DNA of 64,000 bases from Thermodesulfovibrionia bacterium (GCA_947259645.1 CAMYND010000019.1:1-64000); one strand, 5' to 3'; counted from the first letter of the stretch, positions 1 to 59,199 are shown. Notes: generated by a model not told the origin, from the sequence alone. Numbers and translations: made by a program.

Positions 1-390
1 TCCCCACTGCTGCCTCCCGTAGGAGTCTGGACCGTGTCTCAGTTCCAGTGTGGCCGATCAACCTCTCAGTCCGGCTACCCGTCTTCGCCTTGGTGAGCCG
101 TTACCTCACCAACAAGCTGATAGGCCGCAGGTCCCTCCTCAGGCGCCACGATTGCTCGCAGCTTTTACCTCAAGGCATTTCACCTCGGGGTCATATCCGG
201 TATTGGGCCCGATTTCTCGGGAGTATCCCAATCCTAAGGGCAGGTTACCTACGTGTTACTCACCCGTTCGCCACTAAGTTATAAAAATCCACCAACCGAA
301 ATCAGCTTTTTTAAATAACCCCGTTCGACTTGCATGTGTTAAGCGCGCCGCCAGCGTTCGTTCTGAGCCAGAATCAAACTCTCAATAAAA
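1..390 (-). rRNA. rrs: 16S ribosomal RNA, 5' portion (window starts inside the gene; 5' end near 382-390)
   Basis: Reverse complement of 1-60 contains ACTCCTACGGGAGGCAGCAG (the universal 338-357 region). Reverse complement of 363-382 is AGAGTTTGATTCTGGCTCAG (27F region). GAACGAACGCTGGCGGCGCGCTTAACACATGCAAGTCGAACGG is present. ORFs 48-284 and 50-277 fall inside this rRNA and are spurious. Confidence 0.93.
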
Positions 391-38373: not shown

Positions 38374-38451
<78 letters not shown>

Positions 38452-41818: not shown

Positions 41819-43126
41819 TCACAGAGTATCATTTAAGCCAGCAGCATCGGAGTCAATGGGTTCTACGTTTTGTTTTCTCAGGTCATCAATCTTTCGCAAA
41901 GGCCGTTCAAGCTGGTTGACCCGTGTTGTGGTAAGTAAATCGTATTCTTTCTTTGCAGAATCAAGCCTCTCCCCCATGACCCTGAATTTATCTTTGTATG
42001 CTTTCCACTGTTTGGAAAAGTCTCCAAGGAGCTGTATCATTTCAGAGGCGGTCTTCTCGATGCTAAAATTTTCAATAGCCTGCCTGATGACTGCCAGGAC
42101 CGCATAGAGCGTAAAGGGGGAGCAGAGGACAACCTTCTGTTTCAGCGCCTCATCCATCAGTGTAAGGTCCGATTCATTGAGAAAGCCGTACACCTGTTCG
42201 TTCGGAATGAAAATAAGAACATAATCAACAGTGTTGTCAGCGGGGTTAATATAGTCACGTGTTGTGACCTGCTTGATCATCAATTTCGTGTTTTTCAGCA
42301 GCTCATCCCGGTACCGTTTTCTGTCATGGTCAGTTTGAGCGTCGAGATAGTGGATGTAGTTATCAAGGGGGAATTTTACATCCATGTTGATCTTCAGTTT
42401 ATTTGGCATCAAGAAGGTATAATCAGGCCTCCCTGATGAGCTGTCCAGTGTTTTCTGTTTGGTGTAGTTCACTCCCTCAACCATGCCGACCAGGTTAATA
42501 ATATCCTCGGCCATGCGCTCTCCCCACTCACCTCTTTTCTTCGAACTTGCCAGTGCCTGTCTGAGATGATCAGCGGTATCTTTCAGCTTCAAGGTAATGT
42601 CCTCATGCTTTTTAATGAGGGTGGAAACCTCAATATTCCCCTTCCCCACATCTTCGATCTTCATTTTCACCTCGGAAAGGGTCTTGTCCATCTCTTTCAG
42701 GCTGTTATCGATAAGATCTTTCTTGACCTCCAGTTCCTTAGTACCCTCAATTGTCTGGGATTTCAGTCTTTCACCGGCAAGCTTCAGAAACGTCTCGGAA
42801 CTCCTGTCCAATGCTTCTGATGAGAGTGACTTAAACTTGTCCAAAAGCTCTTTTTCCATGGCCAGTAAATTTTTTTCAGTCTCATGATACCGCGCTTCAC
42901 TTGCTGCCCGAATCTCTTTCTCATACTGAAGATCAGTCCGGACATCCTCAAGTTTTCTCTCAAGGTCTTCATTCTGTTTTCTCAATTCACCGTTGACAGC
43001 GTCGGAACTGCCGGCCTTCCCTTCAAAGAATGAGATTTTTTTCGAAAGTATGATATAAAGGATAAGCGAAGCCAGGGCCGCGCCGATTACAAAGCCCGCT
43101 GCGATGAAGCTGATCTCTGTTGCCAT
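41819..43126 (-). CDS. rmuC: DNA recombination protein RmuC
   Basis: N-terminal transmembrane segment, long coiled coil, C-terminal VLIFIPNEQVYGFL RmuC core. Confidence 0.85.
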   Translation of the reverse strand: MATEISFIAAGFVIGAALASLILYIILSKKISFFEGKAGSSDAVNGELRKQNEDLERKLEDVRTDLQYEKEIRAASEARYHETEKNLLAMEKELLDKFKSLSSEALDRSSETFLKLAGERLKSQTIEGTKELEVKKDLIDNSLKEMDKTLSEVKMKIEDVGKGNIEVSTLIKKHEDITLKLKDTADHLRQALASSKKRGEWGERMAEDIINLVGMVEGVNYTKQKTLDSSSGRPDYTFLMPNKLKINMDVKFPLDNYIHYLDAQTDHDRKRYRDELLKNTKLMIKQVTTRDYINPADNTVDYVLIFIPNEQVYGFLNESDLTLMDEALKQKVVLCSPFTLYAVLAVIRQAIENFSIEKTASEMIQLLGDFSKQWKAYKDKFRVMGERLDSAKKEYDLLTTTRVNQLERPLRKIDDLRKQNVEPIDSDAAGLNDTL

Positions 43127-43197: not shown

Positions 43198-43662
43198 CTA
43201 CTGAATCATGTCCGGTTTCATAAAGCCTTCCACAGACCAGATGCCATTCTCTGATCTGCTCAGGCACAGGACAGAACCCATCGCAAAATTGATTACGTTT
43301 TTTTCACTGTTGCCGCAGAGAAGCAGTCCCGTTAGCTTAGAAAGATGAGGCAGGTGCCCCACAATCATAAGGTCATCATCTGCTTTCCCCAGGCGCTCAT
43401 ACCAGAGATCAGGATCGTCCATTGGCGCCAGTCCGTCCGACTCAACCACCTCCATGGTCCCAGCATTCTGTTTTGCCAGTATCTGAGCTGTCTGATATGC
43501 GCGGGCCTTACCGCTATGCACTGCCCGCGTGGCCGATGCACCCAGTTCTGAAATGTAGTGAGCAACTCTGGTAATGTCGTCAATGCCCCTTTGAGACAGA
43601 CTCCGCTCCGGGTCCTCTCCCTTGCTTAATGCTTCAGCATGCTGCACCAGATAGAGAAGCAT
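43198..43662 (-). CDS. sixA: phosphohistidine phosphatase SixA (histidine phosphatase superfamily)
   Basis: LYLVQHAEA...RGH motif arrangement; about 154 aa. Confidence 0.75.
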   Translation of the reverse strand: MLLYLVQHAEALSKGEDPERSLSQRGIDDITRVAHYISELGASATRAVHSGKARAYQTAQILAKQNAGTMEVVESDGLAPMDDPDLWYERLGKADDDLMIVGHLPHLSKLTGLLLCGNSEKNVINFAMGSVLCLSRSENGIWSVEGFMKPDMIQ

Positions 43663-43693: not shown

Positions 43694-45562
43694 TCACGCT
43701 ATTTCCTTACGCGATGAGACAACCGGCATGCGGTCAAAATATTTTTTCACTTCCTCTATATCATGCACTATTTCCATATCCGGCAATGAAGAAATGATCG
43801 ATTTTCCATAGGAATTTTTTACTAATCGTGTATCAAGCAGCGCAATCACACCTTTTTCATCTACCCCTCTGATGAGACGTCCGAAGCCCTGTCTCAGCGT
43901 CAAGATCGCGGAGGGCAGAGCCAAGTCAGGAAACCAGCGGTCTCCCAAACGACGGCACCGTTCATCATAGACCGGGTCTCCGGGTGAACCAAAGGGCATC
44001 TTAACAATAATCACCATGCTCAAGGCATCACCTTTAATATCTATCCCCTGCCAGAATGTTGCCGTAGCAAGCAATACAGCGTTTGCCCTTTTTTTAAACC
44101 ATGATATCAGCCGTGCCGGCGGCATTTCCCCCTGGGATTTTACCGGATATTCAGTGTTGAGGTTCTCTCTCACATAATTGAGGTGGCTGTATGAAGTGAA
44201 CAGCACCAGGGCCCTCCCCCTGGATGCGGCTATCAGATTTTCTATAACTTTCAGGCTCTGTTCCTCGAACTTGACTTTGTTTTGTTTATCAGGCTTCGGC
44301 AGGTCTCTGTTTATATACACAATGGCCTGTTTCCTGAAGTCATAGGGCGAGCCGATCATCCGTTCCCTGAAGGGAGAACCTTCATCAAGGCCGAGCCTCG
44401 CTTTAAAAAAACCGAAGTTCCCCCCTGCGGTTAACGTGGCAGATGTCAACACAGTACTTTCAAAACTGTTCAGAAGGTCACAAAAAGAGGTGCGGCACTC
44501 TACAAGACTGCTGCAGAGTTCAACCCCTCTCTTGCTCCCTGTCATGAAGTAAACCTTTTCATCATTTCCCTGGTCAATTAAGTCATCCATAACAAACGCC
44601 AGTGACTTGATATAGGTAACAGTGGTATCAACCCGGTCTCTCATTTCATCATTTTTCTGCAAATCACTGTCAGAAGTTATTCGTTTAATGATGTTGTCAA
44701 AGGCAAACAAGTCCTTCAAGTTCTTCAAAGCTTCAACAACTGACTGGGGAACGGGATAAACTGTGCGATAGGAGATGTCCTTTCTTTTAAAAAAAGTCTC
44801 CACCGGTTCGAACAGGCCCTCAACAGCCACCTTTAAACCCTTCAGGCGGTAGAGGACCCACATCACTTTTGTGTAATTCAGGGTGCTGCCGGCAGTGTTG
44901 CAGATGACATCTTCGATCTTGTGGGCCTCATCAATAACGAGTTGAGAATGAAAAGGCAGCACATTGGCTTCAGAGAGAAGGTCATATACAAGGAGGTGAT
45001 GGTTCACTATCAGCAGATCTACGTTAAAAAGGCTTCGGTAATGAGAATAATAATAACAGTCAGTATAATCAGGGCACTGCCCGGCACTGCAGTCATCTGA
45101 ATCACCACAGACGCTGCCCCAGAAATCAGGGATAAAGGACAGTTCATTTCTGTCGCCAGTCACTGTCTCGGAAACCCATGCAGCGAATTTCTCATATCCC
45201 TTTCCGAGTTCAGGTTGAAACTCTCTCCCCCTTTTCAGGCAGAGATAATTGTTCTTGCCCTTGAGCAGGGCAAAAGAGAATTTCTGTGGAAGTATCTGCT
45301 GAAGCAGCACAAGGTCTTTATTGACGAGCTGGTCCTGAAGTGCTAATGTGGCTGTTGACACAACCGTCTTTTCCTTGGACACTATGGCTGGAATAAGGTA
45401 TGCGTAGGACTTTCCGATTCCTGTTCCGGCCTCTATGAGAAGCCGCTCTTTGTTGCGCAGGCACGCAAGAACCTCCTCAGCCATACTGATCTGCTGGGGA
45501 CGTTTTTCATATCCGGGAAGGTTTGTCTGTAATGTATTAAAAGCAGATGAAATCTCGCTCAA
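43694..45562 (-). CDS. dinG: DinG/XPD-family Fe-S DNA helicase (Rad3-like, no exonuclease domain)
   Basis: EAGTGIGKSYAYL (motif I). Four-Cys cluster (C..CGDSDDCSAGQCPDYTDC) between motifs I and II. VIDEAHKIEDV (DEAH). Confidence 0.8.
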   Translation of the reverse strand: MSEISSAFNTLQTNLPGYEKRPQQISMAEEVLACLRNKERLLIEAGTGIGKSYAYLIPAIVSKEKTVVSTATLALQDQLVNKDLVLLQQILPQKFSFALLKGKNNYLCLKRGREFQPELGKGYEKFAAWVSETVTGDRNELSFIPDFWGSVCGDSDDCSAGQCPDYTDCYYYSHYRSLFNVDLLIVNHHLLVYDLLSEANVLPFHSQLVIDEAHKIEDVICNTAGSTLNYTKVMWVLYRLKGLKVAVEGLFEPVETFFKRKDISYRTVYPVPQSVVEALKNLKDLFAFDNIIKRITSDSDLQKNDEMRDRVDTTVTYIKSLAFVMDDLIDQGNDEKVYFMTGSKRGVELCSSLVECRTSFCDLLNSFESTVLTSATLTAGGNFGFFKARLGLDEGSPFRERMIGSPYDFRKQAIVYINRDLPKPDKQNKVKFEEQSLKVIENLIAASRGRALVLFTSYSHLNYVRENLNTEYPVKSQGEMPPARLISWFKKRANAVLLATATFWQGIDIKGDALSMVIIVKMPFGSPGDPVYDERCRRLGDRWFPDLALPSAILTLRQGFGRLIRGVDEKGVIALLDTRLVKNSYGKSIISSLPDMEIVHDIEEVKKYFDRMPVVSSRKEIA

Positions 45563-45573
45563 TAAAAACTCCC

Positions 45574-46146
45574 TTAGCCAGGCTTTTTCAATTGTTCATA
45601 TACCCAGATTTTACCGCGATCGGACATTGTTTCCGCTCTTTTGACAAGCCTTTTTTTGTATAAATTCAGGAGCCTGGTTCCGCTTGTGTTAGCGGCGAGC
45701 TGAATGGCTTCCGAGAGTTCCTTAGCTGTTATTTTATCTTTTTTTATAATAATATCAAGCGTTTCTTTCAGGTAATTGTTCAGCGTCCCCATCAGCCGCT
45801 GTTTTCCATTGCTCATTTCAGCCATTACAGCAAGACCCTTTCGCTCGAGAGCAACGACAACATTTTCTCTCTGATGCTCATTAAGTCCGCATAAAATAAT
45901 GAATTTATCGCCATACTCATTGCTGATCAACCGGGACATCAGTTTGGCAATAATCTCATCTGCACAGGAATAATCCACTATTCCTATGCGGGTAAAATCA
46001 AGAGAAATAATTGTTCCTGCTTTTTCCTCTATGATTTTCTCTTCAATGCGTTCCCGGACCAGTTTGCCTGATTGCCGCGTCACAAGGTCAGACGAACTGT
46101 TTTTCAGTGCCTTCTCAAGAATACTGTATAAGTCATATGTTGCCAT
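45574..46146 (-). CDS. STAS-like (DUF4325-like) domain protein with C-terminal wHTH-like segment
   Basis: ISLDFTRIGIVDYSCADEIIAKL resembles STAS/DUF4325. C-terminal ITAKELSEAIQLAANTSGTRLLNLYKKRLV resembles a winged HTH. Eleven-nucleotide gap to dinG. Confidence 0.45.
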   Translation of the reverse strand: MATYDLYSILEKALKNSSSDLVTRQSGKLVRERIEEKIIEEKAGTIISLDFTRIGIVDYSCADEIIAKLMSRLISNEYGDKFIILCGLNEHQRENVVVALERKGLAVMAEMSNGKQRLMGTLNNYLKETLDIIIKKDKITAKELSEAIQLAANTSGTRLLNLYKKRLVKRAETMSDRGKIWVYEQLKKPG

Positions 46147-46287
46147 AATCGATTATCTTCGTCTCATATATACTGCATGCTCTCGTACGCAGGCAATGAA
46201 TGATGCGTTGTGCACAGCACAGTTAGGTGAACGTCGTGGCAGGGGGCAGGAAACCAGAAATGATAGCACACCCGGGTCGTTACACTG

Positions 46288-46506
46288 CTACATATAAAAG
46301 CTGTCCCACTCAGACTCTATCTCTTTGTATGCTTCACACACGATGATCTGCTCGCAGTCAGGGCAGAACCCGTCACAATCACAGTCGTCATCGTCGTCAC
46401 AACCGAAGAGAGACGCGTCAATGGCATGATCATGAGATTGTTGAAACTGAAAAAAGTCATTTAATATATCCAGATACCTCCCCGCAAAATCTTTGAGTGA
46501 AGCCAT
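46288..46506 (-). CDS. small acidic Cys-rich protein (about 72 aa; CDDDDDCDCDGFCPDCEQIIVC)
   Basis: AGGAGG SD four nucleotides upstream of ATG 46506; seven Cys in a D-rich cluster. Confidence 0.5.
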   Translation of the reverse strand: MASLKDFAGRYLDILNDFFQFQQSHDHAIDASLFGCDDDDDCDCDGFCPDCEQIIVCEAYKEIESEWDSFYM

Positions 46507-46557
46507 CACCCCTCCTTATTTAGGGTTAACCGGTAATGATATTAAATGTCGCTACTG

Positions 46558-46585
46558 TTCAATTGGTTCAATTGAACCAATTGAA
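46558..46585. promoter_or_regulatory. perfect 28-bp palindrome TTCAATTGGTTCAATTGAACCAATTGAA (3x CAATTG) in a divergent promoter region
   Basis: Read directly; lies between the minus-strand gene starting at 46506 and nfo starting at 46648. Confidence 0.8.
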
Positions 46586-46647
46586 TCATAATTACCCTTT
46601 TTTGTCAAGAAATAATTACACTTATAAATTGTATACTTTAGGTTCTC

Positions 46648-47553
46648 ATGAACGCGCGAAAAAAAGAAAATCACAATTACAGGCTTGGGGTCCATACATC
46701 CATTGCCGGAGGGATACCTCAGTCTCTGGAGCGTGCCGCTGTGCTCAACTGCTCTGCCATGCAGATATTCTCCCACAGTCCGCGACAATGGAAAAAAACG
46801 CCTGTCAGTGCTGAGGAAGCTGCACAGTTCGCATTGTTGCGGAAGCAATATGATATTAACCCTGTCTATATCCATGCGTCATACCTGATTAACCTTGCAT
46901 CTCATTCTGATGATGTCCTGGCAAAATCAATCGACCTGCTCTCCTATGAGCTTCAGAATGCCGACAGACTGGGGGTTGAATATGTTGTACTCCACACTGG
47001 CAGCGCTCAGGGGGCAGACGGAAAAACAGCGAGAAAAAGGGCGGCAAGGTCGATACTGGAGGCTGTGACCGAAGGGTACAACGCTTCTATTCTGCTGGAA
47101 AATGCAGCCGGGTCCAGAGGCAGCTTAACATCAACAGTTGTATCACTCTCCGAGCTTCTCAACGGGTGTGACGGACAAGGAGTTTCAGGGGTCTGCATTG
47201 ATACCTGTCATGCCTATTCAGCAGGTTATGATTTCACCACAAAGGATGGAGCGAAAAATTTCATTGATGAGATAGAACAGCATATCGGGCTGGACAAGCT
47301 CAAACTGATCCACCTGAATGACTCAAAAAAACCTCCCGGCTCCGGGGTTGACAGACATGAGCACATTGGAAAAGGGTTTATCGGGACCACCGGTTTCAAA
47401 AACCTCCTGTCAGACAGGAGGATATCCTCTGTTCCGATCATTCTGGAGACCCCGAAAAAAACCGAATATGATGATATGAAAAACCTTGAATCTGTCAGAA
47501 AAATACTGGCTTCCTGCGGCGGGGCAAAAGGGACAAGGGCCAAAAAGATTTAA
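46648..47553 (+). CDS. nfo: endonuclease IV (AP endonuclease family 2)
   Basis: LGVHTSIAGG, HASYLINLAS, HTGS, and conserved His/Asp/Glu metal ligands. Confidence 0.9.
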   Translation: MNARKKENHNYRLGVHTSIAGGIPQSLERAAVLNCSAMQIFSHSPRQWKKTPVSAEEAAQFALLRKQYDINPVYIHASYLINLASHSDDVLAKSIDLLSYELQNADRLGVEYVVLHTGSAQGADGKTARKRAARSILEAVTEGYNASILLENAAGSRGSLTSTVVSLSELLNGCDGQGVSGVCIDTCHAYSAGYDFTTKDGAKNFIDEIEQHIGLDKLKLIHLNDSKKPPGSGVDRHEHIGKGFIGTTGFKNLLSDRRISSVPIILETPKKTEYDDMKNLESVRKILASCGGAKGTRAKKI

Positions 47554-47566
47554 CCACCGGCATCCA

Positions 47567-48328
47567 TTAAATGGTTAATATGCCCGTTGCCTCATAGCGG
47601 CTGGCGGTATACAACGTAAGGTCCTGCCTTCCAATTTCACGATGAGTCTTCAACGCTGTTTCCGGGTTATTGTTATTGTTCGAAAGATGAGCAAGGCATG
47701 CCCACTTCAGCCGATCACCTGCCTGGAGCAGTTCAGCTGCCTCCCTGTTTGAAAGGTGTCCTTCCGGCCCCTGGATACGGCGCTGCAAAGAGAGTGGATA
47801 GGGGCCCCGTACAAGCATGTCCGGGTCATAGTTGCTCTCGATAAATACTGCGTCCAGCATCGGCATCTCAGCATGAAGATCTCTAAAGGCATGGCCCAGG
47901 TCAGTCCAGATACCCAGCCGTTTTTCGCGGGAGGACAGCACAAAAACCGCCCCGTCTACACCATCGTGGGGAGAAGGGATGGTCTGCACTGAAACGCTCT
48001 CAAAACAGAGAGTATCTCCGGCCTGAAAGTAGTGAACAGTATCCATTTTGCCCAGATTATGTCTTTTCGACGCCCTCTGCAGGGTCCTCGGAGTAACATA
48101 AACCGGCAGGCCGAACTTCCTTCCGTATACTCCGGCATACCGGGAGTGATCTCCATGGTCATGGGAAAGGATTAAGGCGTCCACATCTCTTATGTTGCGG
48201 CCAAATCCCTCAAGACGCTGTTCAGCTCTAATGCCGGATATTCCTGCATCAAAGATAAGTTTAACACCCCCTGTTTCAACATACAGACAGTTTCCATTGC
48301 TGCCGGACTGAAGTGATATAGCGATCAT
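47567..48328 (-). CDS. MBL-fold metallo-hydrolase (ORF called to 48430; likely start ATG 48328)
   Basis: ILSHDHGDHS (HxHxDH) motif. Confidence 0.75.
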   Translation of the reverse strand: MIAISLQSGSNGNCLYVETGGVKLIFDAGISGIRAEQRLEGFGRNIRDVDALILSHDHGDHSRYAGVYGRKFGLPVYVTPRTLQRASKRHNLGKMDTVHYFQAGDTLCFESVSVQTIPSPHDGVDGAVFVLSSREKRLGIWTDLGHAFRDLHAEMPMLDAVFIESNYDPDMLVRGPYPLSLQRRIQGPEGHLSNREAAELLQAGDRLKWACLAHLSNNNNNPETALKTHREIGRQDLTLYTASRYEATGILTI

Positions 48329-48387
48329 TGCTCTTATCCTTGCATAGAGAAGTGGAAGATTACAAGGTGTGGTACATATCTTTATGA

Positions 48388-48495
48388 AAACCACGGAGAC
48401 ACGGAAACAGAGAGAATAAAGAATATTCAAGGAAGTTGGTTGTCTAATAATCAGATCTTTAGTGTTTTTCTCCGTGCCTCCGTGTCTCCGTGGTT
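48388..48495. repeat. long inverted repeat: AAACCACGGAGACACGGA (48388-48405) and its reverse complement (48478-48495)
   Basis: Eighteen-bp perfect arms with about 70 nt between them. Sits between the MBL gene start and the YkgJ-like gene end. Confidence 0.7.
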
Positions 48496-48505
48496 TACTT
48501 ACATT

Positions 48506-49000
48506 TCACGCCAGGAGCTTTCCCCTTACTAAAGTCAGCTGCTGATAGGAGTAAATGAACTCCCGATAGAGACGGGGCTTTTCCTGACTGAAACTTTCAA
48601 GCAGGGGCTCACAGAAGTAAAAGGTACAGCGGTAGGGCCTTTTCCATCTTTTAAGTGAGCAGCCTCTTTTACTCATGTGCCTGCAGGGGTCTGTCTCTTT
48701 CCGGTCCGGGGTATAGGGATATATGCCCTCGCCAAGGGCTGAGAGAAAGATAATATCATTCATACTGTAGAAACTGTGCCTGTTTATACAGCATACTTTG
48801 GGGCATTCCGGGCAAACCAGAGTTGTATGTGTTTCAATGAATGGACTGATCTCCTGAAACAGACGTTTCAGTTCCTCGGCAAGTCCTCTCCGGTCGGAGC
48901 CATCGATAATGTGGGGCCGTGAACTTTCCTGTGTCATACTGCTATCTAATCCTCCCCTTCGGTGCAGGTGACAGTGTCCCTCATCCATATATAACTGCAT
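48506..49000 (-). CDS. YkgJ-family Cys-cluster protein (CxxCxxCC putative Zn/Fe-chelating domain); start likely 49000 or 48988
   Basis: CPECPKVCC motif plus additional Cys (CTFYFCEP). Confidence 0.6.
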   Translation of the reverse strand: MQLYMDEGHCHLHRRGGLDSSMTQESSRPHIIDGSDRRGLAEELKRLFQEISPFIETHTTLVCPECPKVCCINRHSFYSMNDIIFLSALGEGIYPYTPDRKETDPCRHMSKRGCSLKRWKRPYRCTFYFCEPLLESFSQEKPRLYREFIYSYQQLTLVRGKLLA

Positions 49001-49005
49001 CCCTG

Positions 49006-49860
49006 TTAGTTCTGCACCTCCGGCAGCATAATATGTATTTGTGAGCCGGGAAAGGGGGCAAGATTTACTACTTTCTTTTTTCCGAATGCCCACTCGGGAA
49101 CAACCGCGACTTTAGCAGTACCGGAGCGAATGGTTATCTTGCCGCTCCACTGTTCCACAAACCTTCTGACCCCTGCGAGTCCATGTCCCCGCCCCTTATC
49201 AGTATATCTCGAAAATCCCTGGAGCAATGCCTTCTGCAAAGCATCACAGTCGTCTGAAACGGTGACCCTTTCGGAAAGTGACTCGCGGAACCCGATGCCG
49301 AGATCCATTACCGCGATTTTGACCACATTCAAATCGAGCTTCTTAAAATAATATTTCTGAATACCGACCATCCCGGAGTTCTTGCTGTGCTCAACAATGT
49401 TCTGGCACACTTCAGAGAGGGCCACGATAAACCCGCTTATAGCGCGGTCATCATAGTGAAGATGCCGTTCCAGAATCGTATGGGCACGCTGTTTGACTTT
49501 GTCCACGATAAAATGGATATCATCTGACTGGTAAATCGGTGTAATCTCGAGGAGCACGTCAGAGAAATCGCTTCTCAAATGCTTATCAGAAAAATCAGGG
49601 GCTGGCTCAAGATTAAAGTAGCGGTCAGCATACCTGAAAAAATCCATCCGCTCGAGGTATCTCAGAACATCAGGAGACCGCGGCAGCAACAATGTCCTCT
49701 TCTCTCCCTTTGAAAGCAGAGAGCGGCCTGTCTCCAGTATCCCGACCATTCCATAGGGATCAATAAATGCCACGTTCTGAAGATCGAAAAAGTCCTGACG
49801 AGAAATCTGCGACAGAAAAAGTTCAAAGGTGTCATCAGACAGCTGATGTATTGCTGTCAT
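49006..49860 (-). CDS. fusion protein: N-terminal STAS-like (anti-sigma-antagonist-like) domain plus C-terminal GHKL ATPase/Ser kinase (RsbW/SpoIIAB-like)
   Basis: N-terminus VAFIDPYGMVGILETGRSL...LLLPRSPDVLRYLERMDFF. C-terminal N-box EVCQNIVEHS, G1 MDLGIGF, G2 GRGHGLAGV. Four-nucleotide overlap (ATGA) with lolD stop. Confidence 0.55.
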   Translation of the reverse strand: MTAIHQLSDDTFELFLSQISRQDFFDLQNVAFIDPYGMVGILETGRSLLSKGEKRTLLLPRSPDVLRYLERMDFFRYADRYFNLEPAPDFSDKHLRSDFSDVLLEITPIYQSDDIHFIVDKVKQRAHTILERHLHYDDRAISGFIVALSEVCQNIVEHSKNSGMVGIQKYYFKKLDLNVVKIAVMDLGIGFRESLSERVTVSDDCDALQKALLQGFSRYTDKGRGHGLAGVRRFVEQWSGKITIRSGTAKVAVVPEWAFGKKKVVNLAPFPGSQIHIMLPEVQN

Positions 49861-58964: not shown

Positions 58965-59040
58965 TGGAGGCGGCGAGCGGATTCGAACCGCTGCATAAAG
59001 GTTTTGCAGACCTCCCCCTTAGCCACTTGGGTACGCCGCC
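58965..59040 (-). tRNA. tRNA-Cys (anticodon GCA)
   Basis: Manual cloverleaf: acceptor GGCGGCG/CGCCGCC, discriminator U, anticodon loop CUGCAAA, T-arm AGCGG-TTCGAAT-CCGCT, CCA encoded. Confidence 0.85.
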
Positions 59041-59124: not shown

Positions 59125-59199
59125 TGGAGCGGGAGACGGGGTTCGAACCCGCGACAACCACGTTGGCAACGTGGAGCTCTACCACTGAGCTACTCCCGC
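59125..59199 (-). tRNA. tRNA-Gly (anticodon GCC)
   Basis: GCGGGAGTAGCTCAGTGGTAGAGC...; anticodon loop UUGCCAA; T-loop GGTTCGAAC; CCA encoded. Confidence 0.88.

What the first reader, a model, noticed from the sequence alone, without database searches (positions are those of the whole stretch)
43694..46600. DinG-like Fe-S helicase co-oriented with a STAS-like/wHTH protein and a small acidic Cys-rich protein, abutting a perfect 28-bp palindrome
Three minus-strand genes sit upstream of a divergent promoter region that contains the perfect palindrome TTCAATTGGTTCAATTGAACCAATTGAA (three CAATTG half-sites). On the other side is nfo (endonuclease IV); rmuC and sixA lie downstream. The genes are a 72-aa D/C-rich protein with a consensus SD, a 190-aa STAS-like + HTH-like protein, and a 622-aa XPD/DinG-family helicase. 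DinG-family helicases recur in defence and CRISPR type IV-A contexts, and STAS-like DUF4325 proteins are poorly understood. The palindrome looks like an operator for a dimeric regulator controlling both nfo and this trio.
Basis: partly seen in the sequence, partly recalled or inferred. Interest (0 to 1): 0.55.

Follow-up and report, generated by a model that had tools for sequence, protein, structure and literature searches.

The report
DNA-damage kinase–repressor switch with operator
The palindrome is the conserved operator of a CapK/CapS-type switch (a kinase plus the repressor it phosphorylates, shown in other bacteria to respond to DNA damage), which here sits ahead of DNA-repair genes rather than forming a DinG-based defence module.

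Summary
All features exist as described, and the 28-bp palindrome is unique in the window. The grouping is wrong, though.

- **Repressor.** The 190-aa STAS+wHTH protein is a distant homologue of CapS, a repressor described in 2026 (profile match to PDB 9z71/9z72, E 5e-20; hhalign 98.7%). The phospho-acceptor serine is conserved (S60 = CapS S54).
- **Kinase.** Its partner, a CapK-like STAS+GHKL kinase, lies 2.9 kb upstream at 49006-49860.
- **Operator.** The core TTCAATTGA-W-TCAATTGAA sits inside one conserved promoter (TTGACA-N17-TTCAAT, with a conserved TG one base before the -10). It occurs upstream of the capS-like gene in 51 of 88 related loci, across several phyla.
- **Small protein.** The 72-aa Cys-rich protein is a conserved first gene after the operator (21 related loci).
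- **DinG.** It is a YoaA/DinG-type repair helicase, next to capS in only 9 of 80 genomes.
- **Neighbours elsewhere.** Other genomes have rmuC, mutS, addAB or cinA-recA after capS. Restriction-modification genes often sit between operator and capS.

Most likely an ssDNA-activated kinase releases the repressor from this operator, inducing p72-capS-dinG-sixA-rmuC. That mechanism is inferred by homology. Control of nfo is unproven. This is a new variant of a known kind.

The parts
49006..49860 (-). CapK-like serine kinase: N-terminal STAS domain plus SpoIIAB/RsbW-type GHKL domain, with no N-terminal HTH
48506..49093 (-). Cys-rich protein 'p195' (contains CPECPKVCC). The true start is probably later than the GTG that overlaps capK.
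   Evidence: No Pfam hit. Homologues lie between the capK-like gene and the operator in L022, L035, L041, L058, L071, L074, L155 and L163, and after capS in L087.
47567..48430 (-). Metallo-beta-lactamase-fold hydrolase. A window-specific gene between p195 and the operator; probably not part of the switch.
   Evidence: Pfam Lactamase_B_2. Found in 0 of 80 related loci.
46648..47553 (+). nfo (endonuclease IV), transcribed divergently from the operator region. Control by the switch is unproven.
   Evidence: TIGR00587 252 bits, above its cutoff. Promoter-like site TTGTCA-17-TAAATT at 46602-46630. The same divergent arrangement occurs in metagenome locus L106. nfo is absent from the 80 species-representative loci.
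46603..46608 (-). -35 hexamer TTGACA of the conserved operon promoter
   Evidence: cTTGACAaa is nearly invariant in 32 aligned sites and in 19 loci with imperfect operators.
46580..46588 (-). Extended -10 element: TG (46588-46587), one base, then TTCAAT (46585-46580), 17 nt after the -35. It overlaps the operator.
   Evidence: TATG-A-TTCAAT has high information content although TATG lies outside the palindrome. Spacing was read from the sequence.
46558..46585 (.). Operator: a 28-bp perfect palindrome with three CAATTG units 9 bp apart. The conserved core is the 19-bp TTCAATTGA-W-TCAATTGAA; the third unit is perfect only in this window.
   Evidence: Unique in the window. An exact CAATTG-N3-CAATTG occurs in 31 of 80 loci, and a core with up to 3 mismatches in 51 of 88, always upstream of and co-oriented with capS; shuffles give about 1.2 hits in total. 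In the metagenome scan, 27 of 29 sites with the promoter context carry capS or capK.
46288..46506 (-). p72: conserved small acidic Cys-rich protein, the first gene after the operator. Motif: C-x3-C-x2-C-x5-C ... Y-x-E-x3-[ED]-W-[ED]-x-[FL]-Y.
   Evidence: An HMM finds 21 homologues in related loci, mostly starting within about 30-80 nt of the operator, and 7 more in metagenome loci. No Pfam family.
45574..46146 (-). CapS-like repressor: STAS domain (about residues 1-120) plus winged HTH (about 124-185). S60 is the putative phospho-acceptor.
43694..45562 (-). DinG/YoaA-type Fe-S DNA repair helicase, 11 nt after capS. Probably co-transcribed cargo, not a core part of the switch.
   Evidence: NCBIfam YoaA 498 bits. 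Helicase motifs and Cys cluster present. Orthologues (56-62% identity) are near capS in 9 of 80 loci, on either side.
43198..43662 (-). SixA-family phosphatase, 31 nt after dinG
   Evidence: TIGR00249 97 bits, above its cutoff. Downstream of capS in 9 of 70 loci.
41819..43126 (-). rmuC (DNA recombination nuclease), the commonest gene after capS in relatives
   Evidence: Pfam RmuC 4e-60. Downstream of capS in 23 of 70 loci. No terminator is predicted on the minus strand between 46500 and 41800.

Best explanation
The region is the regulated end of a CapK/CapS-type DNA-damage switch, a divergent and 'split' variant of it.

**Proposed mechanism.**
1. The 190-aa STAS-wHTH protein (CapS-like) binds as a dimer or oligomer to the CAATTG palindrome.
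2. The palindrome overlaps the -10 hexamer and transcription start of a conserved promoter (TTGACA-N17-TTCAAT, with a conserved TG one base before the -10, i.e. an extended -10). Binding therefore represses the operon p72-capS-dinG-sixA-rmuC, including its own gene.
3. The STAS+GHKL kinase 2.9 kb upstream (CapK-like, 49006-49860) phosphorylates Ser60 of the repressor's STAS domain when activated. By analogy the activator is single-stranded DNA produced during DNA damage or repair.
4. Phosphorylation breaks the repressor dimer and de-represses the operon.

**What is shown and what is inferred.**
- Shown here: homology of both proteins to CapK and CapS; conservation of the serine; conservation and position of the promoter-operator; gene order across genomes.
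- Inferred: DNA binding, phosphorylation, ssDNA sensing, and co-transcription of the repair genes.

**Status of the other genes.** DinG is not a core component. It is one of several interchangeable DNA-repair genes found behind capS in different genomes (rmuC, dinG, mutS, addAB, cinA-recA). The gap between operator and capS is a hotspot that holds restriction-modification and other defence genes in relatives. In this window it holds only p72.
For: **Repressor homology.**
- Family profile against the PDB: 9z71_A and 9z72_A, full length, E 5.5e-20 and 1.2e-19.
- These are the CapS structures of Chambers et al., EMBO J 2026 (PMC13373217).
- hhalign against E. roggenkampii CapS: 98.7%, E 1.6e-16, with S60 aligned to S54 and G178 to G170.
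- S60 is invariant in 43 homologues and sits at the N-terminus of a STAS helix in the model.

**Kinase.**
- hhalign to CapK: 94.9%, including the N-box.
- Co-oriented and upstream in 30 of 40 loci with enough sequence, including Brocadiaceae, Scalinduaceae and Desulfobacterota.

**Operator.**
- Exact CAATTG-N3-CAATTG in 31 of 80 loci. Core with up to 3 mismatches in 51 of 88. Always upstream of capS and co-oriented.
- The -35, TG and -10 context is conserved.
- In the pattern-first metagenome scan, 27 of 29 sites with the promoter context have capS or capK in the locus.
- A clade at only 46-54% identity keeps the same core 46-170 nt upstream of capS.

**Operon.**
- Gaps are 11, 31 and 71 nt between capS, dinG, sixA and rmuC. 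No terminator is predicted.
- In 46 of 79 loci, the first three ORFs after capS include a co-oriented rmuC, cinA-ligT-recA, mutS, addAB-like or dinG gene.
Against: - No experiment. Binding, phosphorylation and ssDNA activation are transferred from E. roggenkampii and V. cholerae proteins that are recognisable only at profile level. A single-sequence PDB search found nothing.
- The published family rule that capK is immediately followed by capS is not met. In the window they are 2.9 kb apart with four genes between them, and 0-8 kb apart in relatives.
- The kinase lacks CapK's HTH, and CapK's ssDNA-contact residue W68 has no alignable counterpart.
- Two of CapS's four DNA-contact residues are not conserved: N145 aligns with T154 and K151 with L160.
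- The operator differs from the published TTAA half-sites. No second, downstream operator was found.
- Adjacency of the repair genes could be conserved synteny without co-regulation. Long cargo of up to 8 kb between operator and capS probably carries its own promoters.
- Both AF2 models have only moderate confidence.
Confidence: 0.72

Rival explanations
1. One reading: p72, the STAS-wHTH protein and DinG form a three-gene defence or type IV-A-like module, in which DinG is the effector helicase.
For: The three genes are co-oriented and tightly spaced. PADLOC 'typeIV_DinG' models hit the helicase, best 391 bits. Relatives carry R-M and other defence genes in the same locus.
Against: DinG is next to capS in only 9 of 80 genomes, upstream in two of them. 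Its best NCBIfam match is repair helicase YoaA at 498 bits, against Csf4 TIGR03117 at 107 bits with a 400-bit cutoff. The window has no CRISPR-like repeats. The slot after capS is filled by rmuC, mutS, addAB or cinA-recA in other genomes.
Confidence: 0.05
2. The CapK/CapS-like switch is real but controls only itself, p72 and whatever cargo sits between operator and capS. The repair genes dinG, sixA and rmuC (and recA, mutS or addAB elsewhere) are merely syntenic neighbours with their own promoters.
For: In Thermodesulfovibrionia the flanks are conserved core synteny, from the ABC ATPase to the dGTPase, so adjacency could be historical. There are gaps of 71-160 nt before rmuC, cinA or mutS in some loci. 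No second operator lies downstream of capS.
Against: Different repair genes follow capS in different lineages, some with gaps of 3-11 nt: dinG in the window, addA in L015, L061 and L070. Two mutually divergent rmuC types occupy the same slot. No terminator is predicted in the window.
Confidence: 0.2
3. The palindrome is bound by a different factor, or serves mainly nfo. Candidates are an unlinked regulator, p72 or p195. The STAS-wHTH protein would then have another target or act as a classical partner-switching antagonist.
For: Binding is not demonstrated. nfo is divergent from the site in the window and in L106. CapS's DNA-contact residues are only partly conserved.
Against: The site travels with capS across phyla, whereas nfo, p72 and p195 are absent from most loci that carry it. 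The kinase has no HTH. The site overlaps the -10 of the capS-direction promoter and lies about 17 bp upstream of the putative nfo -35. No sigma factor gene lies nearby.
Confidence: 0.08
4. The palindrome is a chance or structural sequence, such as a cluster of CAATTG restriction sites, a 9-nt repeat or a mobile-element end, with no regulatory role.
For: The same 19-mer occurs in 42 of 80 metagenome hits with no capS or capK homologue detected in the locus. Most of these are low-GC contigs, and several sit in 9-nt repeats. CAATTG is under-represented in the window.
Against: Those unrelated hits lack the promoter context, apart from L089, L095 and L139. Of those three, L095 carries a capK fragment by tblastn and the other two have too little flank or only unidentified genes downstream. 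In capS loci, position, orientation and the flanking -35 and TG elements are conserved at up to about 50% protein divergence. Zero matches in 100 shuffles.
Confidence: 0.03

Closest known systems
CapK/CapS (Chambers, Rani, Min, Villa, Corbett, EMBO J 2026; PMC13373217; PDB 9z71, 9z72, 9z73)
   Same: - A STAS-wHTH repressor of about 185 aa with a conserved serine at the start of a STAS helix.
- A SpoIIAB/RsbW-like GHKL kinase with its own STAS domain, encoded upstream on the same strand.
- An AT-rich palindromic operator at the promoter between the kinase and repressor genes, giving autoregulation.
- Association with restriction-modification and other defence genes.
   Different: - The kinase lacks the N-terminal HTH.
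- The genes are not adjacent. A variable 0-8 kb of cargo sits between operator and capS, instead of an immune operon after capS.
- The operator is TTCAATTGA-W-TCAATTGAA (three CAATTG units in the window) rather than TTAA half-sites, and no second 'wide' operator lies downstream.
- A conserved small Cys-rich leader gene (p72) is present.
- The genes after capS are DNA-repair or recombination genes (rmuC, dinG, mutS, addAB, cinA-recA).
- The hosts are Nitrospirota (Thermodesulfovibrionia), anammox Planctomycetota, Desulfobacterota and Nitrospinota, with a fixed chromosomal position in Thermodesulfovibrionia.
- The paper does not mention these taxa or repair genes.
VapKSC (same paper)
   Same: The kinase architecture is STAS+GHKL without an HTH, as described for VapK. 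The family profile weakly hits the VapS structure 9z7o (E 0.07).
   Different: VapS has no wHTH and is an antitoxin for a PIN nuclease. Here the STAS protein carries a wHTH, and no VapC/PIN gene is present.
SpoIIAB-SpoIIAA and RsbW-RsbV partner-switching modules
   Different: No sigma factor is involved. The STAS substrate is itself a DNA-binding repressor. The kinase carries an extra STAS domain.
LexA/RecA SOS response (functional analogy only)
   Same: An ssDNA-triggered release of an autoregulated repressor from a palindromic operator ahead of DNA-repair genes. E. coli dinG and recA are SOS genes (from general knowledge).
   Different: Unrelated proteins, and a different mechanism: phosphorylation rather than self-cleavage. 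No genome-wide regulon has been shown here.
DinG/YoaA helicases and type IV-A CRISPR Csf4
   Same: The 622-aa protein has the XPD/DinG motifs and Fe-S cysteines.
   Different: It scores far below the Csf4 cutoff and has no cas or CRISPR context. It also falls below the YoaA equivalog cutoff (498 against 680 bits), so it is a DinG/YoaA-family member and not a proven YoaA orthologue.

Membership tests
CapS (STAS-wHTH repressor) | Two-domain architecture of about 185 aa: N-terminal STAS plus C-terminal winged HTH | tested here: met
CapS (STAS-wHTH repressor) | Sequence homology to experimentally characterised CapS | tested here: met
   Profile against PDB 9z71/9z72: E 5.5e-20 and 1.2e-19, full length. 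hhalign 98.7%, E 1.6e-16. A single-sequence search is negative, so the relationship is distant.
CapS (STAS-wHTH repressor) | Conserved phospho-acceptor serine (S54) at the start of the STAS helix | tested here: met
   S60 aligns with S54, is invariant in 43 sequences, and sits at the N-terminus of helix 59-74. Phosphorylation itself was not tested.
CapS (STAS-wHTH repressor) | DNA-contact residues N145, K151, G169, G170 | tested here: inconclusive
   G170 aligns with the invariant G178. G169 aligns with R177 in the window, but that position is G in more than 90% of the family. N145 aligns with T154 (an invariant N153 is one position earlier). K151 aligns with L160. This fits a different operator specificity.
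CapS (STAS-wHTH repressor) | Palindromic operator overlapping the promoter upstream of capS (autoregulation) | tested here: met
   A conserved 19-bp palindrome overlaps the -10 in 51 of 88 loci and in metagenome hits. Physical binding is not testable with these tools.
CapS (STAS-wHTH repressor) | Second operator (wide palindrome) in the promoter of an operon downstream of capS | tested here: not met
   Half-sites occur within 400 bp downstream of capS in only 3 of 79 loci. capS-dinG are 11 nt apart in the window.
CapK/CapS gene pair | capK immediately followed by capS (443 of 443 in the paper) | tested here: not met
   In the window, the capK-like gene ends at 49006 and capS starts at 46146, with p195, the MBL gene, nfo and p72 between them. 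In relatives the genes are 0-8 kb apart.
CapK (kinase) | STAS plus SpoIIAB/RsbW-like GHKL kinase with the catalytic N-box Asn (N218) | tested here: met
CapK (kinase) | N-terminal HTH domain | tested here: not met
   284 aa against 368 aa. The alignment starts at CapK residue 126, and the model begins directly with the STAS domain. The paper reports that deleting the HTH has no phenotype.
CapK (kinase) | ssDNA-binding residues W68, K237, K239 and activation by ssDNA | not testable with these tools
   W68 lies in a region that does not align. K239 aligns with a Lys and K237 with a Tyr. Activation needs a kinase assay.
YoaA / DinG repair helicase | SF2 helicase motifs, Fe-S cysteine cluster, Helicase_C_2 domain; equivalog-level score | tested here: inconclusive
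   The motifs are present. The YoaA model is the best hit, but 498 bits is below the 680 cutoff. Family membership is met; exact orthology is not established.
Type IV-A CRISPR helicase Csf4 (CasDinG) | Score above the TIGR03117 cutoff and cas/CRISPR neighbourhood | tested here: not met
   107 bits against a 400-bit cutoff. The window has no direct-repeat arrays. Neighbours are repair and housekeeping genes.

The most novel reading that the evidence does not exclude
In Thermodesulfovibrionia, and through transfer in anammox Planctomycetota and some Desulfobacterota and Nitrospinota, this HTH-less CapK/CapS pair may be a chromosomal SOS-like regulator based on phosphorylation. ssDNA would activate the kinase, and the repressor would leave the CAATTG operator. 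Core repair genes (recA via cinA, mutS, addAB, rmuC, dinG) would then be induced together with whatever restriction-modification or defence cargo has landed between operator and capS. p72 would be a new metal-binding small effector, possibly carrying Fe-S or Zn, made first on induction. The SixA-type phosphatase next door might reset the phosphorylated repressor.
Probability: 0.3. Interest if true: 0.8.

Novelty: new variant of a known kind. Interest (0 to 1): 0.62.

Why it matters
CapK/CapS was described in 2026 only as a controller of anti-phage operons, mostly in Proteobacteria, with the two genes always adjacent.

This locus points to a large, strongly conserved sister clade. At least 588 species-representative genomes encode a relative of the repressor. 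Searches of the public protein collections returned about 1,500 repressor and 2,000 kinase homologues.

Three things differ in this clade:
- The module is fixed in the chromosome.
- It is split by a cargo hotspot.
- It sits ahead of DNA-repair and recombination genes, including recA, mutS, addAB, rmuC and dinG.

If the inferred mechanism holds, it would be a LexA-independent, kinase-based DNA-damage response in poorly studied anaerobes. It would also link repair and restriction-modification expression.

The work supplies a precise operator and promoter, a candidate phospho-site (S60) and a new conserved small protein. All of these can be tested directly in vitro.

Tried and rejected
- **Single-sequence PDB search** with the 190-aa and 284-aa proteins found nothing useful. 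Only the family profile reached CapS.
- **Locus finder.** The diverse alignment A2 was too variable for it, so A1 was used instead.
- **p72 homologues.** The word-indexed protein search found only one. A local HMM on six-frame ORFs then found 21 more, plus 7 in metagenome loci.
- **Small Cys-rich proteins.** Pfam, NCBIfam and PADLOC gave nothing for p72, and Pfam gave nothing for a trimmed p195 or for two p72 homologues even at E up to 1.
- **PADLOC 'typeIV_DinG' hits** were considered and rejected as general DinG similarity.
- **PADLOC 'DrmA' hit** of the kinase is only the GHKL domain.
- **Second operator downstream of capS:** none found.
- **Viral contigs:** no relatives.
- **Source record of the window:** look-up failed.
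- **First relatives examined** (L001-L008) had no exact CAATTG-N3-CAATTG. L007 and L008 later proved to carry a diverged core with 3 mismatches.
- **Rfam:** nothing in the region.
- **Metagenome operator scan:** 42 of 80 hits had no capS, capK or p72 homologue detectable by HMM. Most lack the promoter context, many are in low-GC contigs, and several sit in 9-nt repeats. They were not counted as regulon members.


Full report
**1. Observation**

Their family assignments hold.
- The helicase is DinG/YoaA-like. The NCBIfam YoaA model is its best hit at 498 bits, below that model's 680-bit cutoff. It carries Walker A GIGKS48, DEAH211 and the Fe-S cysteines C108/152/158/163/169.
- The palindrome TTCAATTGGTTCAATTGAACCAATTGAA is perfect at 46558-46585. 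It is unique in the window even with three mismatches, and no shuffle produced a match.
- The 72-aa ORF starts at the ATG at 46506, behind AAGGAGG.

**2. What the 190-aa protein is**

It belongs to a large, very conserved family. The word-indexed search returned 1545 hits, with the top 120 at 64-70% identity to the window protein, named by their sources as Nitrospirota, Thermodesulfovibrionales or 'Ca. Brocadia'. An exhaustive search gave 660 representatives at 50% clustering, nearly all 180-200 aa.

A profile of diverse members (A2) hits PDB 9z71_A and 9z72_A over the full length, at E 5.5e-20 and 1.2e-19. The single sequence finds nothing.

Those entries are the CapS structures of Chambers et al., EMBO J 2026 (PMC13373217). 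That paper shows the following:
- CapS is a STAS-wHTH repressor.
- CapK is an HTH-STAS-GHKL kinase activated by ssDNA.
- CapK phosphorylates CapS Ser54, which dissociates the CapS dimer and de-represses capS and an adjacent immune operon.

I took the E. roggenkampii CapS sequence from the paper's source data. hhalign then gives 98.7% probability, E 1.6e-16, over 163 columns.
- Window S60 aligns with S54. It is invariant in the family and sits at the N-terminus of helix 59-74 in the AF2 model (pLDDT 76.7).
- The wing glycine G170 aligns with the invariant G178.
- N145 and K151 align with T154 and L160, so the DNA-contact residues are only partly conserved.

**3. The missing partner**

I ran tblastn with the window's proteins against 80 species-representative loci fetched with the family alignment. 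The most constant neighbour is not DinG. It is the 284-aa HATPase_c protein at window 49006-49860.
- It lies upstream on the same strand in 30 of 40 loci that have at least 7.5 kb of upstream sequence. These include Brocadiaceae, Scalinduaceae, Desulfobacteraceae and Syntrophobacterales.
- hhalign against E. roggenkampii CapK gives 94.9%, E 4e-8, over CapK residues 126-328. This includes the N-box, with the invariant N154.
- It has no counterpart of CapK's N-terminal HTH, the architecture the paper describes for VapK.

**4. The palindrome is a conserved operator**

- An exact CAATTG-N3-CAATTG occurs in 31 of the 80 loci (1.03 Mb in total). By my estimate, far fewer than one would be expected by chance.
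- Every copy lies upstream of, and is co-oriented with, the capS-like gene.
- With up to three substitutions in TTCAATTGA-N-TCAATTGAA, 51 of 88 loci have it. Shuffles give about 1.2 hits in total. Most loci without it have less than 5 kb of upstream sequence.
- Aligned sites show one conserved promoter: an A/T-rich stretch, cTTGACAaa, then TATG-A-TTCAATTGAWTCAATTGAA.
- TTGACA is 17 nt from TTCAAT, and a conserved TG lies one base before that hexamer. TATG lies outside the palindrome's symmetry.
- I therefore read this as an extended -10 promoter whose -10 and transcription start are covered by the operator.
- In the window these elements are: -35 at 46608-46603, TG at 46588-46587, -10 at 46585-46580.
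- The third CAATTG is perfect only in the window. L039, L047 and L106 have degenerate third units.

**5. Independent specificity test**

- Of 29 sites with the promoter context, 27 carry a capS-like and/or capK-like gene within the often short contig.
- Twelve more sites, whose context my pattern did not recognise, also carry capS or capK. They include a clade at 46-54% identity with the operator 46-170 nt upstream of capS.
- In 42 hits an HMM search found no capS, capK or p72 homologue. Most are low-GC contigs, and several sit in 9-nt repeats.
- I saw no evidence of a dispersed regulon. Whole genomes could not be scanned.

**6. Gene content around the switch**

*The small protein.* p72 is a conserved component.
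- An HMM built from nine sequences finds 21 further ORFs of 54-114 aa in the related loci. Most start within about 30-80 nt of the operator. Seven more occur in metagenome loci.
- The conserved part is C-x3-C-x2-C-x5-C followed by Y-x-E-x3-[ED]-W-[ED]-x-[FL]-Y.

*Between operator and capS.* Relatives carry 0-8 kb of almost entirely co-oriented cargo. It consists of:
- Mainly restriction-modification genes: N6_N4 and D12 methylases, with AlwI, MvaI/BcnI, TdeIII, BglII, Eco57I-type and ResIII enzymes.
- Also GmrSD, RelA_SpoT, GIY-YIG, AAA_21/AAA_15, SNF2+SWIM, EVE, ORF6N, and in two cases DinG.

*After capS.* The next co-oriented genes are, by number of loci:
- rmuC in 23
- pgpA-cinA-ligT, followed by recA in at least two loci, in 11
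- mutS in 6
- an addA-like gene, with an addB-like gene after it in two, in 3
- dinG in 4 more

Together that is 46 of 79 loci.

*Position of DinG.* It is within the locus in 9 of 80 genomes, downstream of capS in seven and upstream in two.

*In the window.*
- The gaps capS-dinG-sixA-rmuC are 11, 31 and 71 nt. No minus-strand terminator is predicted.
- nfo and the MBL gene are absent from all 80 loci.
- One metagenome contig (L106) has the same arrangement: nfo divergent, then operator-p72-capS-dinG.

**7. Mechanism**

The best-supported model has four steps:
1. The CapS-like dimer occupies the operator and blocks the extended -10 promoter of p72-capS-dinG-sixA-rmuC.
2. DNA damage produces ssDNA, which activates the CapK-like kinase.
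3. The kinase phosphorylates S60.
4. The repressor dissociates and the operon is induced.

Homology, the conserved serine, the operator-promoter anatomy and the gene order are shown here. Binding, phosphorylation, ssDNA sensing and co-transcription are inferred from PMC13373217 and from the spacing.

Control of nfo is doubtful. The operator lies about 17 bp upstream of the putative nfo -35, and that promoter is not conserved in L106.

**8. Comparison and novelty**

The locus works like CapK/CapS but fails three of the published family's features:
- The two genes are not adjacent.
- The kinase has no HTH.
- There is no second downstream operator.

It also has a different operator sequence. It adds a leader gene (p72), a cargo slot between operator and repressor, and a recurrent link to DNA-repair genes in Nitrospirota, anammox bacteria and others. 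The paper mentions none of these, and no other paper in the library describes CapK/CapS. I rate it a new variant of a known kind.

The defence or type IV-A reading of DinG is not supported.

**9. Limits**

- Both structural models have moderate confidence.
- The relationship to CapS is detectable only at profile level.
- The source genome could not be retrieved.
- lexA presence, dinG copy number and genome-wide operator copies could not be checked.

Noticed in passing
window, whole 64 kb: CAATTG (the MfeI/MunI-type site) is under-represented: 16 observed against 28 ± 5 in shuffles, and all 100 shuffles had at least 16. Three of the 16 lie in the operator. This may reflect a CAATTG-specific restriction system in the lineage.
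   Followed up: no
related loci L007, L009, L012, L016, L022, L025, L037, L042, L062, L083 compared with L001, L011, L021, L035, L041 and others: Two mutually divergent RmuC types occupy the same slot right after capS. One is 64-74% identical to the window's RmuC, the other 24-28%. Such replacement is more typical of defence genes than of housekeeping genes.
   Followed up: no
window 48506-49093 (-): A Cys-rich ORF 'p195' (contains CPECPKVCC) overlaps the end of the capK-like gene. It has no Pfam hit. Homologues sit between capK and the operator in several relatives, and after capS in L087.
   Followed up: partly
window 43198-43662 (-): A SixA-family phosphatase lies next to capS or dinG, and directly follows capS in several relatives. 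The CapK/CapS paper identifies no phosphatase that resets phospho-CapS, so this is a candidate. Speculative.
   Followed up: no
related loci, e.g. L035:6067-6357, L058:2410-2595; L027:7705-7992, L007:5724-5966: Two further conserved families of small ORFs occur in the cargo slot. One of 57-96 aa lies between p72-like and capS in 9 loci. One of about 65-95 aa occurs in about 9 distinct loci, directly upstream of capS in at least four of them. Neither is present in the window.
   Followed up: partly
metagenome loci L091, L108, L116, L127, L141, L149, L153, L166: A more divergent capS clade (46-54% identity) keeps the identical 19-bp operator 46-170 nt upstream of capS. My pattern for the Nitrospirota-type -35/TG context did not match there.
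   Followed up: no
metagenome loci L104, L105, L109, L125, L126, L128, L132, L148: In unrelated contigs the operator 19-mer sits next to tandem 9-nt repeats of similar sequence. This is a source of false positives for any operator search.
   Followed up: yes
L004:5441-6004 (Brocadia), just upstream of capS with a 4-bp overlap: A 187-aa ORF that looks to me like a nucleotidyltransferase (my reading of the sequence, not tested), preceded by Rv0078B-like and SEC-C proteins. This is toxin-antitoxin-like cargo in the slot.
   Followed up: no
window 1-389 (-); 38377-38451, 58968-59040, 59128-59199 (-): The 5' end of a 16S rRNA gene is cut by the window edge, and there are three tRNA genes. The 16S fragment could identify the organism.
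   Followed up: no
window 46288-46506 (-): The C-x3-C-x2-C-x5-C spacing in p72 recalls [4Fe-4S]-binding motifs: the radical-SAM CxxxCxxC and the C-x2-C-x5-C of WhiB-like proteins. This resemblance is from memory and was not tested.
   Followed up: no
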